From assembly GCF_030013595.1 (NCBI RefSeq), contig NZ_CP122768.1: a stretch of 64,000 nt of DNA; one strand, written 5' to 3'. Below the pieces are notes generated by a model. It worked only from the letters and a program-made list of their open reading frames with translations, ran no database searches and was not told the origin of the DNA. Below are positions 53,601-56,719 of the stretch, piece after piece. This stretch comes from Escherichia coli (lineage in GTDB: Bacteria; Pseudomonadota; Gammaproteobacteria; Enterobacterales; Enterobacteriaceae). A program made the position numbers and the translations under genes. Each line of letters starts with the position of its first letter. The first letter of the stretch is position 1.

Positions 53601-55579
<1,979 letters not shown>

Positions 55580-55581
<2 letters not shown>

Positions 55582-56719
55582 GTCAGAGCCCCTCGATCTC
55601 AATCAGTTAGCGCAAAATATTAAACAGTGGGGGCTGGAACTGGGCTTTCAGCAGGTAGGTATTACCGATACCGATCTCAGCGAGTCCGAGCCCAAACTGC
55701 AAGCATGGCTGGACAAACAATACCACGGCGAAATGGACTGGATGGCGCGTCACGGTATGCTGCGCGCTCGCCCCCATGAGTTATTGCCCGGTACGCTGCG
55801 CGTGATCAGCGTGCGGATGAATTACCTTCCTGCTAACGCCGCATTTGCCAGCACGCTGAAAAACCCTAAGCTCGGCTATGTGAGCCGTTATGCGCTGGGC
55901 CGTGACTACCACAAACTTCTGCGCAACCGACTCAAAAAGCTGGGCGAGATGATTCAGCAACATTGTGTTTCGCTGAATTTTAGACCGTTTGTCGATTCTG
56001 CGCCTATTCTCGAGCGCCCGTTAGCTGAAAAAGCAGGACTTGGCTGGACAGGTAAGCACTCACTTATCCTCAATCGCGAGGCCGGTTCGTTCTTCTTTTT
56101 AGGCGAATTGCTGGTCGATATTCCTCTGCCCGTGGATCAACCAGTCGAGGAAGGATGCGGTAAATGCGTGGCCTGTATGACGATTTGCCCGACCGGAGCC
56201 ATCGTCGAGCCATATACCGTCGATGCTCGCCGCTGTATCTCTTATCTCACCATCGAACTGGAGGGGGCGATCCCGGAAGAGTTGCGACCGTTAATGGGAA
56301 ATCGTATTTATGGTTGCGATGACTGCCAGCTTATCTGCCCGTGGAATCGCTATTCGCAACTCACTACAGAAGACGATTTCAGCCCGCGTAAGCCGCTACA
56401 CGCACCGGAACTCATTGAGTTATTCGCCTGGAGTGAAGAGAAGTTTTTAAAAGTCACGGAAGGTTCGGCGATTCGCCGTATAGGTCACCTGCGTTGGCTG
56501 CGTAATATTGCCGTAGCCTTAGGCAATGCGCCCTGGGATGAAACGATTCTGGCGGCGCTGGAAAGTCGTAAAGGTGAGCACCCACTTCTTGATGAGCACA
56601 TAGCGTGGGCGATTGCGCAGCAAATCGAGAGACGAAATGCGTGCATAGTCGAAGTGCAATTGCCGAAAAAACAGCGTCTGGTTCGGGTAATTGAAAAAGG
56701 GTTACCGCGTGATGCCTGA
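55580..56719 (+). CDS. queG: Epoxyqueuosine reductase QueG (YjeS), 379 aa from [10 protein letters not shown]
   Basis: ORF 55472-56719; 4Fe-4S ferredoxin-type Cys clusters (CGKCVACMTICP, CDDCQLICPWN). Confidence 0.9.

What the first reader, a model, noticed from the sequence alone, without database searches (positions are those of the whole stretch)
55579..55582. Divergent nnr and queG start codons overlap on opposite strands (CATG)
With the starts chosen to give the expected protein lengths (515 and 379 aa), the queG ATG occupies 55580-55582 and the nnr ATG occupies 55579-55581 on the other strand, so there is no intergenic space. Each gene's promoter and ribosome-binding site must therefore lie inside the other's coding sequence, an unusual head-to-head arrangement.
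Basis: partly seen in the sequence, partly recalled or inferred. Interest (0 to 1): 0.25.

Follow-up and report, generated by a model that had tools for sequence, protein, structure and literature searches.

The report
Overlapping divergent nnr/queG start codons
Two E. coli housekeeping genes on opposite strands really do begin on the same four bases (CATG), so each gene's promoter and ribosome site sit inside the other's coding sequence; this rare, old arrangement is already annotated and already listed as an overlapping-transcript ("excludon") locus.

Summary
CATG lies at 55579-55582. queG (379 aa, + strand) starts at 55580 and nnr (515 aa, - strand) at 55581. Curated K-12 and RefSeq/PGAP annotate the same 2-bp head-to-head overlap.

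Both starts look real:
- The junction is kept in 30 of 32 Enterobacterales species where nnr abuts queG.
- The rival nnr start (Met6, MKKNP) exists in only a few genera and has a weaker Shine-Dalgarno site (-3.2 vs -7.2 kcal/mol).
- queG's ATG is often the only in-frame start.

queG's promoter is an extended -10 (TGgTATACT, 55540-55548) written in nnr codons 12-15, whose synonymous sites never vary (AGT 29/29, ATA 18/18, CCA 28/28). nnr's Shine-Dalgarno site GAGGGG is the reverse complement of queG codons 4-5. An nnr-operon promoter (-10 TAAAAT, 55982-55977) lies about 390 nt inside queG. Published 5' ends fall within 1 nt of both predicted starts, and the roughly 413-nt overlap forms dsRNA in vivo.

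None of this is new in kind. ExcludonFinder (2025) lists queG-nnr among 16 divergent E. coli excludons, and a ΔPqueG allele deletes exactly this promoter. The evolutionary depth and the dual-coding codon signature are the additions here. Any regulatory effect remains untested. Interest is low to moderate.

The parts
55579..55582 (.). CATG junction: queG ATG (55580-55582, + strand) and nnr ATG (55581-55579, - strand) share 2 bp
   Evidence: Conserved in 30/32 Enterobacterales loci with adjacent nnr.
55580..56719 (+). queG CDS (tRNA epoxyqueuosine reductase, 379 aa)
   Evidence: TIGR00276 equivalog, 510 bits. Aligns to B. subtilis QueG 5D08 from residue 6. The ATG is the only in-frame start in many species.
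54034..55581 (-). nnr CDS (bifunctional NAD(P)HX epimerase/dehydratase, 515 aa). Residues 1-16 precede the YjeF_N domain.
   Evidence: NF007856 equivalog, 1026 bits, aligned from residue 1. The TIGR00197 domain model starts at residue 17.
55520..55548 (+). queG promoter inside nnr codons 12-21: weak -35 TCGGCG (55520-55525), extended -10 TG (55540-55541), -10 TATACT (55543-55548)
   Evidence: TGnTAnnnT sits at a fixed -40 from the queG ATG in all Enterobacterales loci, including those without adjacent nnr. nnr codons AGT/ATA/CCA show no synonymous variation. Codon table and natural experiments. The published ΔPqueG allele deletes 55520-55550.
55555..55579 (+). queG 5'UTR (about 25 nt), fully antisense to nnr codons 1-9. 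The mapped 5' end is at 55556; the +1 predicted from the -10 box is G55555.
   Evidence: Conway overlap end 4392114 (U00096.2) equals window 55556. A p19 small RNA on the queG strand covers 55563-55584. The SD is weak, -2.2 kcal/mol.
55589..55594 (-). nnr Shine-Dalgarno GAGGGG, the reverse complement of queG codons Pro4-Leu5 (CCC CTC), with a 6-7 nt spacer to ATG1
   Evidence: Anti-SD duplex -7.2 kcal/mol, top ~5% of background. queG codons 5-6 are invariant: CTC 28/28, GAT 29/29. Leu5 becomes Tyr (TAC) in the two lineages where nnr moved away (L028, L031).
55564..55566 (-). Alternative nnr start Met6 (MKKNP), disfavoured
   Evidence: Present in only 9 of 30 species. Anti-SD duplex only -3.2 kcal/mol. 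It is the only usable start in one MAG with a 1-nt indel (L019).
55977..55982 (-). -10 hexamer TAAAAT of an nnr-operon promoter inside queG codons 133-135 (AAT TTT AGA). Predicted +1 is A55970.
   Evidence: Conway promoter 4391701 (U00096.2) equals window 55969. GGTCTAAAATTCAG, with the rare AGA codon, is invariant in 19 of 20 Enterobacteriaceae-like loci (WIN, L003-L018, L020; L019 has ...TTCAA). It is lost in other families, where Arg is a CGN codon.
55582..55970 (-). nnr-operon 5' leader (about 389 nt), antisense to queG codons 1-130
55556..55969 (.). About 413-nt region transcribed on both strands. It forms dsRNA in vivo.
   Evidence: p19-captured cluster S-361, Lybecker dsRNA locus MS-212 'Divergent', and the Conway 413-nt overlap. 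queG-nnr is listed as a divergent excludon.

Best explanation
Both annotated start codons are genuine, so nnr and queG truly share the CATG. The locus is a maximally compacted head-to-head gene pair in which every expression signal of one gene is written in the coding sequence of the other.

queG:
- It is transcribed from an extended -10 sigma-70 promoter (TGgTATACT, with a weak -35) that lies in nnr codons 12-15.
- Transcription starts at about 55555 and gives a ~25-nt, SD-poor leader that is antisense to nnr codons 1-9.

nnr:
- nnr is the first gene of the nnr-tsaE-amiB-mutL-miaA-hfq... transcription unit.
- It is transcribed from at least one promoter inside queG (-10 TAAAAT, built from queG codons 133-135; start at about 55970). 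Read-through from yjeV/glyVXY may add to this.
- It is translated from ATG1 using a GAGGGG Shine-Dalgarno site that is the reverse complement of queG's Pro4-Leu5 codons.

Consequences:
- The two mRNAs are complementary over about 413 nt and form dsRNA that RNase III processes. That is a divergent-excludon architecture.
- Nnr residues 1-16 lie outside the catalytic YjeF_N domain. They act as a tolerant N-terminal tail whose codons are dictated largely by queG's promoter and leader.
- The interlocking constraints have kept the junction unchanged across Enterobacterales.

Shown: the starts (comparatively), the promoter positions, the transcript 5' ends and the dsRNA (published data). Inferred: that the overlap has any regulatory consequence.
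For: Annotation agrees in curated K-12 and in PGAP.

Starts:
- The CATG is conserved and nnr ATG1 is in frame in 30/32 species. In many species it is the only start before codon 22.
- The SD upstream of ATG1 is conserved and strong (-7.2 kcal/mol, against -3.2 for Met6).
- queG's ATG is the sole in-frame start in many species. The upstream GTGs lie 5' of the mapped transcript start.

Embedded signals:
- TGnTAnnnT sits at a fixed -40 from the queG ATG in all 35 Enterobacterales loci with the queG 5' flank. This includes four loci where nnr is 1.15 kb away or absent from the flank.
- Synonymous sites are invariant exactly at nnr codons 12-14 and queG codons 5-6. These are the only runs of invariant codons in either gene.
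- The peptide drifts (SIPH, SLAH, NLPQ, RVAQ...) while the DNA motif stays. In displaced nnr genes the synonymous sites relax and the box is destroyed (L053 AGT ATT CCG CAG; L031 CCT).

Experimental data:
- Published 5' ends lie at window 55556 and 55969, each within 1 nt of the predicted +1.
- dsRNA was detected by two independent methods.
- queG-nnr is listed as a divergent excludon and yjeV-queG-nnr as a noncontiguous operon.
- The ΔPqueG allele removes 55520-55550.

Protein and RNA context:
- The YjeF_N domain model starts at Nnr residue 17.
- Both initiation regions are less structured than shuffled controls.
Against: - I found no direct N-terminal or translation-initiation-site data for either protein, so the E. 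coli nnr start rests on comparative and SD evidence.
- One MAG (L019) can only use the Met6-equivalent start, so that start can be sufficient.
- queG's ATG has essentially no SD (-2.2 kcal/mol).
- The nnr promoter at 55970 is conserved only in Enterobacteriaceae proper. Other families must use other promoters, and the mapped 5' end could in principle be a processing site.
- My simple promoter scanner found nothing in 55200-56000, because both promoters have weak -35 elements.
- No experiment read here shows that either gene affects the other's expression.
- The invariance of tATGGTCCGTC immediately upstream of queG's ATG is not fully explained.
Confidence: 0.85

Rival explanations
1. In E. coli, nnr is really translated from the downstream Met6 (MKKNP, ATG at 55566-55564). 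That would leave a 15-nt gap between the two coding sequences, and the CATG overlap would be an annotation convention.
For: An in-frame ATG exists at codon 6 in Escherichia, Citrobacter and a few other genera. In MAG L019 a 1-nt indel makes this the only usable start. The catalytic domain starts only at residue 17, so either start gives a functional enzyme. No experimental N-terminus was found.
Against: Met6 is present in only 9 of 30 species; elsewhere codon 6 is Leu, Val, Ile, Glu or Lys. In many species no start codon other than ATG1 exists before codon 22. ATG1 has a conserved SD at optimal spacing (-7.2 kcal/mol), against -3.2 for Met6. nnr codons 2-4 are nearly invariant at synonymous sites.
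Confidence: 0.1
2. The conserved GTGTGGTATACT block reflects selection on an Nnr N-terminal peptide motif (S-I/L-P-H), not a queG promoter. The resemblance to an extended -10 would then be coincidental.
For: An S/N-L/I-P-H/Q-like peptide persists in some nnr genes that are no longer next to queG (L031 SLPD, L053 SIPQ). This suggests some protein-level or legacy constraint.
Against: Peptide selection cannot explain the lack of synonymous variation (AGT 29/29 of 6 Ser codons, rare ATA 18/18, CCA 28/28). The amino acids vary only in ways that preserve TGnTAnnnT (P/A/S/T = NCA; I/L = xTA; even R-V-A-Q in L071). The box stays at -40/-43 of queG where nnr is absent or displaced. In L053 the peptide is kept but the box is destroyed by synonymous changes. 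The mapped queG 5' end lies 7-8 nt downstream of the box. Another laboratory deleted exactly this interval as PqueG.
Confidence: 0.04
3. The overlap is a functional regulatory device, a true excludon. Transcription of the nnr superoperon (or read-through from glyVXY/yjeV) would repress queG through head-on interference and RNase III cleavage of the 413-bp duplex, and the reverse would also hold. That would couple queuosine maturation inversely to nnr-tsaE-...-miaA-hfq expression.
For: dsRNA from this region ranks among the 20 most abundant protein-coding-only p19 clusters in the stationary-phase set. The pair is listed as a divergent excludon in at least 50% of 58 transcriptomes. The divergent nnr-queG adjacency and the embedded promoter are conserved well beyond Enterobacterales.
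Against: No expression measurement read here shows anticorrelation or RNase III dependence for this pair. Conservation can be explained by interlocked sequence constraints alone. The nnr promoter inside queG is not conserved outside Enterobacteriaceae.
Confidence: 0.25

Closest known systems
Divergent excludons / 5'-overlapping divergent operons (Sesto et al. 2013 concept; E. coli catalogue in ExcludonFinder, PMC12288877; dsRNA maps of Lybecker 2014 and Huang 2020, PMC7373196)
   Same: The genes are divergent neighbours whose transcripts overlap at their 5' ends (about 413 nt) and form RNase III-processed dsRNA. This exact pair is listed in those catalogues.
   Different: The intergenic distance here is -2 bp, whereas the mean for E. 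coli excludons is 95 nt. So the coding sequences and start codons overlap, not only the UTRs. Mutually exclusive expression, the functional hallmark, has not been shown for this pair.
Extended -10 (TGnTATAAT) sigma-70 promoters located inside coding sequences
   Same: TGgTATACT with a weak -35 (TCGGCG, 17-bp spacer), and a mapped 5' end 7-8 nt downstream of the hexamer.
   Different: The promoter is embedded in the first 21 codons of the divergent neighbour. It leaves a clear dual-coding signature there: invariant rare codons, and amino-acid drift restricted to changes that keep the motif.
Short overlaps between adjacent bacterial genes (ATGA/TGATG type, co-oriented)
   Same: A few-nucleotide overlap involving start or stop codons, conserved among relatives.
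   Different: Those overlaps are co-oriented and support translational coupling. This one is head-to-head, the rarest class: 2 of 663 overlapping pairs in E. coli. It cannot couple translation.
Noncontiguous operons (Saenz-Lahoya et al. 2019 concept)
   Same: yjeV-queG-nnr is listed as one of three such units in E. coli. The yjeV and nnr strand is transcribed across the oppositely oriented queG.
   Different: A single transcript running from yjeV or glyVXY through to nnr was not examined here. A separate internal promoter at about 55970 also feeds nnr.

Membership tests
QueG (tRNA epoxyqueuosine(34) reductase, TIGR00276) | Full-length match to the equivalog model above the curated cutoff | tested here: met
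   510.5 bits against a cutoff of 200, covering residues 14-348. Also aligns to the solved B. subtilis QueG 5D08 at E = 4e-49.
Nnr (bifunctional NAD(P)HX epimerase/dehydratase, NF007856; YjeF_N + YjeF_C) | Full-length match to the equivalog model, with both domains present | tested here: met
   1025.7 bits against a cutoff of 703, residues 1-509. TIGR00197 covers residues 17-220 and TIGR00196 covers 231-499. TM0922 structure match at E = 2e-58.
Divergent overlapping gene pair (head-to-head CDS overlap) | Both start codons genuine and sharing nucleotides | tested here: met
   Comparative conservation of both starts and of the SD. Not confirmed by protein N-terminal data.
Divergent excludon | Divergent neighbours whose transcripts overlap at their 5' ends | tested here: met
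   Published 5' ends give a 413-nt overlap. They agree with the -10 boxes found here. The pair is listed in the ExcludonFinder E. coli excludome.
Divergent excludon | dsRNA formation and RNase III processing of the overlap | tested here: met
   Published data read here: p19-captured ~21-nt duplexes from both strands across the junction, and Lybecker dsRNA locus MS-212. I ran no new experiment.
Divergent excludon | Mutually exclusive or antagonistic expression of the two genes | not testable with these tools
   No expression data specific to this pair were found. A ΔPqueG strain exists, but only datA phenotypes were reported in the passages read.
Extended -10 sigma-70 promoter | TG at -15/-14, a TAnnnT hexamer, and a transcript 5' end 6-8 nt downstream | tested here: met
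   TG at 55540-55541, TATACT at 55543-55548, mapped 5' end at 55556. The motif is position-conserved in all Enterobacterales loci.
Extended -10 sigma-70 promoter | Promoter activity abolished by mutation of the -10/TG | not tested
   The ΔPqueG allele (deletion of 55520-55550) was built by others. Its effect on queG mRNA was not reported in the text I read.

The most novel reading that the evidence does not exclude
The frozen head-to-head junction could be a conserved regulatory switch rather than mere compaction. Antisense transcription through PqueG could set QueG levels inversely to the tRNA-modification, repair and Hfq superoperon, acting through promoter occlusion and RNase III cleavage. 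That antisense transcription would come from the internal nnr promoter and from cell-cycle-modulated glyVXY/datA/yjeV read-through. The Nnr N-terminal tail would then be an overprinted by-product of queG's promoter and leader.
Probability: 0.2. Interest if true: 0.45.

Novelty: already known. Interest (0 to 1): 0.25.

Why it matters
As a discovery it matters little. The overlap is in the reference annotation, PqueG has been deleted by others at exactly this position, and the pair is in published dsRNA and excludon catalogues.

Its value is as a clean worked example of dual coding. A promoter and a Shine-Dalgarno site are written into the neighbour's codons, and the signature is measurable:
- rare codons that do not vary among species;
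- amino-acid drift confined to substitutions that preserve TGnTAnnnT;
- relaxation of those sites once the genes separate.

It also offers practical cautions. Deleting or recoding the 5' end of either gene will disturb the other: an nnr knockout can remove PqueG, and a queG knockout can remove nnr's promoter, leader and SD, with polar effects on tsaE, amiB, mutL, miaA and hfq. The 'conserved' Nnr N-terminal motif should not be read as a functional peptide.

Tried and rejected
- Simple sigma-70 scan of 55200-56000. It found no promoter, because both promoters have weak -35 elements and fall below its thresholds. I therefore did not take this as evidence of absence.
- Experimental TSS tables. 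The Cappable-seq supplements had no matching coordinates, possibly because stored files are truncated. No Conway 2014 supplements were held. The Kim 2012 tables had no entry. The needed numbers came indirectly from the p19 paper's supplement.
- Translation-initiation and N-terminal evidence. TetRP, the Ribo-RET preprint and Salmonella riboproteogenomics held nothing for these genes.
- A conserved RNA hairpin as the reason for the invariant tATGGTCCGTC|ATG block. Rejected: both strands fold less well than shuffled controls (z +1.6 and +2.1).
- A known RNA family at the junction. Rfam gave only the three tRNA-Gly genes and a sub-threshold YrlA hit spanning them.
- Upstream queG starts (GTG at -45 and -108). 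Rejected: they are not conserved and lie upstream of the mapped transcript 5' end.
- The upstream nnr TTG (522-aa ORF). Rejected: it has no SD (+1.3 kcal/mol) and is absent in 17 of the 32 Enterobacterales loci examined.
- A deeply conserved nnr promoter inside queG. The synonymous-site scan found no extended invariant stretch beyond codons 1-8. The TAAAAT box is specific to Enterobacteriaceae.

Full report
**Observation.** The tetranucleotide CATG lies at window 55579-55582. On the + strand, ATG 55580-55582 opens a 379-aa ORF (MSEPLDLNQ...). On the - strand, ATG 55581-55579 opens a 515-aa ORF ([10 protein letters not shown]...). The window is E. coli chromosome: the region is found in 5425 of 5426 complete genomes. 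It carries amiB-tsaE-nnr on one strand and queG on the other, followed by the three tRNA-Gly genes and orn. The proteins are unambiguous members of QueG (TIGR00276, 510 bits against a cutoff of 200) and Nnr (NF007856, 1026 bits against 703). Both PGAP and the curated K-12 record annotate exactly this 2-bp head-to-head overlap (queG 4392928-4394067, nnr 4394066-4395613).

**Are the two starts real?** I fetched 80 orthologous queG loci from other species.

For queG:
- The ATG is conserved, and the protein aligns from residue 1 across Enterobacterales.
- In many species it is the only in-frame start codon after the preceding stop.
- E. coli QueG aligns with the solved B. subtilis enzyme from residue 6.
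- The next downstream Met would delete the conserved N-terminal domain.

For nnr:
- The ATG inside the CATG is in frame and aligned to residue 1 in 30 of the 32 Enterobacterales loci where nnr abuts queG.
In many genera (Siccibacter, Cedecea, Serratia, Yersinia, Rahnella, Budvicia and others) no start codon other than ATG1 exists before codon 22.
- ATG1 is preceded by a conserved GAGGGG/GAGAGG. The anti-SD duplex is -7.2 kcal/mol with a 6-nt spacer, in the top ~5% of background. The values are -3.2 for Met6 and +1.3 for the upstream TTG.
- There are two exceptions. In a soil MAG (L019) a 1-nt indel leaves only the Met6-equivalent start. In Brenneria (L028) nnr lies 147 nt away and has a different N-terminus.
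- I found no N-terminal proteomic or initiation-profiling data for either gene, so the nnr start rests on comparative and SD evidence.

**Where are the expression signals?** A GTGTGGTA(T/A)ACT block lies at a fixed -40 from the queG ATG in every Enterobacterales locus. That includes Pectobacterium, Photorhabdus and Xenorhabdus, where nnr is not the neighbour. It is a textbook extended -10 (TGgTATACT, 55540-55548) with a weak -35 (TCGGCG, 55520-55525).

On the other strand this block is nnr codons 12-15 (Ser-Ile-Pro-His). A codon-level analysis of 30 species gives these results:
- Synonymous variation is zero exactly there: AGT 29/29 of six possible Ser codons, the rare ATA 18/18 of Ile, and CCA 28/28.
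- Only about 3% of informative nnr codons are that invariant.
- nnr 12-14 and queG 5-6 are the only runs of consecutive invariant codons in either gene.

A wider codon table acts as a natural experiment.
- Wherever nnr abuts queG (about 47 loci, reaching Vibrionaceae, Alteromonadales and Aeromonadales), the four codons always reverse-complement to TGnTAnnnT.
- The peptide itself drifts: SIPH, TIPH, SLPY, SLAH, SLSH, NLPQ, SLTQ, even RVAQ. The changes are of the kind that keep the DNA motif (P/A/S/T = NCA; I/L = xTA).
- Where nnr has moved away, the synonymous sites relax and the box is destroyed even if the peptide persists (L053: S-I-P-Q = AGT ATT CCG CAG; L031: CCT).
- In Pseudidiomarina (L040) the box lies in a 64-nt intergenic gap and Nnr lacks the motif.
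- The YjeF_N domain model begins only at Nnr residue 17. Residues 1-16 are therefore a tail outside the catalytic fold, largely dictated by queG's promoter and leader.

The reverse is also true. nnr's SD is the reverse complement of queG codons Pro4-Leu5. queG codons 5, 6 and 8 are invariant (CTC 28/28, GAT 29/29, AAT 21/21), against about 1% of informative queG codons overall. Leu5 has become Tyr (TAC) in the two lineages where nnr moved away.

**Experimental support from the literature.** The supplement of Huang et al. 2020 (PMC7373196) tabulates several datasets for this locus:
- a p19-captured dsRNA cluster, S-361 (4391754-4392109, U00096.2), among the 20 most abundant protein-coding-only clusters in the stationary-phase set;
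- the Lybecker et al. dsRNA locus MS-212, labelled 'Divergent' (4391717-4392100);
- the Conway et al. overlapping operons, 4391701-4392114, with the + strand operon running from promoter 4391701 to terminator 4408049, a 413-nt overlap.

After coordinate conversion, checked against K-12, which is identical to the window in all key elements, the queG transcript 5' end is at window 55556. That is 7-8 nt downstream of TATACT; the predicted +1 is G55555. The nnr-operon 5' end is at 55969. That is 7-8 nt downstream of a TAAAAT hexamer (55982-55977, - strand) built from queG codons Asn133-Phe134-Arg135, AAT TTT AGA. AGA is a rare Arg codon.

The sequence GGTCTAAAATTCAG is invariant in 19 of the 20 Enterobacteriaceae-like loci (WIN, L003-L018, L020; L019 has ...TTCAA). 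It is replaced by CGN-containing versions (CGAAAAT, CGGAAAT) in Erwiniaceae, Yersiniaceae and other families. That promoter is therefore family-specific, whereas the queG box and the CATG are older.

Two further papers bear on the locus.
- Kasho and colleagues built a ΔPqueG allele. Its primer arms map to a deletion of window 55520-55550, exactly the -35 to -10 interval inferred here.
- ExcludonFinder (NAR 2025, PMC12288877) lists queG-nnr among the 16 divergent excludons of the E. coli 'excludome', and yjeV-queG-nnr among three noncontiguous operons.

**Mechanism.**

Shown:
- two genuine overlapping start codons (comparative evidence);
- a queG promoter and leader inside nnr codons 1-21;
- an nnr SD inside queG codons 4-5;
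- an nnr-operon promoter about 390 nt inside queG;
- overlapping transcripts that form RNase III-processed dsRNA in vivo.

Inferred:
- the junction is evolutionarily fixed because every base serves two functions;
- Nnr's N-terminal 16 residues are an overprinted tail.

Not shown: that the overlap regulates either gene. Neither initiation region folds stably (z +1.6 and +2.1 against shuffled controls), and Rfam finds nothing at the junction. The near-perfect conservation of tATGGTCCGTC just upstream of queG's SD-poor ATG (-2.2 kcal/mol) is only partly explained. This block is nnr codons 2-4: ACG 23/24, GAC 24/25, CAT 27/27.

**Comparison and novelty.** Head-to-head CDS overlaps are the rarest class: 2 of 663 overlapping pairs in E. 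coli (PMC4161906). The intergenic distance of -2 bp is extreme even among divergent excludons, whose mean in E. coli is 95 nt. But the overlap, PqueG, the dsRNA and the excludon classification are all already on record. My analysis adds the phylogenetic depth, the codon-level dual-coding signature with its natural controls, and the observation that the 'conserved' Nnr N-terminal motif is essentially a promoter read backwards. I rate the finding as already known, real and of low-to-moderate interest (0.25). There is a roughly 20% chance that the architecture is a functional switch linking queuosine maturation to the nnr-tsaE-...-miaA-hfq unit, which would raise the interest to about 0.45.

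Noticed in passing
window 54472-54510 and 54394-54417 (- strand; nnr codons 358-370 and 389-396): A second cluster of nnr codons with almost no synonymous variation: CTG 29/30, GCA 28/29, GAT 20/20, AAT 28/28; then GAA 18/18, CGC 28/30, TTA 28/28. It reads like an internal sigma-70 promoter (-35 CTGGCA, 18 nt, -10 CACAAT) about 410 nt upstream of tsaE. It could feed tsaE-amiB-mutL.
   Followed up: partly
window 55570-55623 (+ strand): An upstream ATG in queG's 5'UTR (55570, +1 frame, 17 codons) is the reverse complement of nnr His4, which is CAT in 27/27 species. In outliers this position is TTG or CTG. The whole tATGGTCCGTC block before queG's SD-poor ATG is nearly invariant, and the reason is unclear.
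   Followed up: partly
window 55781-55963 (- strand): A 60-aa ORF antisense to queG begins 6-7 nt after the nnr-operon 5' end, so it is nearly leaderless. Its ATG is not conserved in other genera, so it is probably spurious.
   Followed up: partly
window 54034-54062 (- strand): The nnr 3' end and the tsaE 5' end overlap by 29 nt on the same strand. The last 8 nnr codons are present in only a few species, which gave them artificially low entropy.
   Followed up: no
window 56702-57408: The 17-aa yjeV ORF (56702-56755, - strand) overlaps the queG 3' end convergently by 18 nt. Upstream of it lie the DnaA-inactivating datA locus and three tandem tRNA-Gly(GCC) genes. Published work shows glyVXY read-through transcription across datA, and the catalogue lists yjeV-queG-nnr as a noncontiguous operon. 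A sub-threshold Rfam YrlA hit (40 bits against 69) spans two of the tRNA genes and is likely an artefact.
   Followed up: partly
L028 (Brenneria roseae) 2354-2502: nnr starts 147 nt from queG with a new N-terminus (MADQQQRGADVLPC...). A dead relic of the old nnr 5' end (MANR*...TTLP) and the TGTGGTAAAAT box remain next to queG. This looks like a duplication or insertion that separated the pair while keeping queG's promoter.
   Followed up: partly
L049, L059, L071 (Bowmanella, Lacimicrobium, Neptunicella) about 2477-2482; L072 (Tolumonas) 2501-2502: Three Alteromonadales genera have a CAATG junction, with a putative TTG start for nnr overlapping queG's ATG by 1 nt. Tolumonas (Aeromonadales) has a CATG junction like the enterics. 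Head-to-head start overlap at this gene pair is therefore either old or recurrent.
   Followed up: partly
L037 (E. coli SCPM-O-B-8794) 1-810: In this E. coli assembly the queG match begins only at residue 110, and the upstream flank is unrelated sequence. This suggests a rearrangement or insertion that disrupts queG and the junction in that strain.
   Followed up: no
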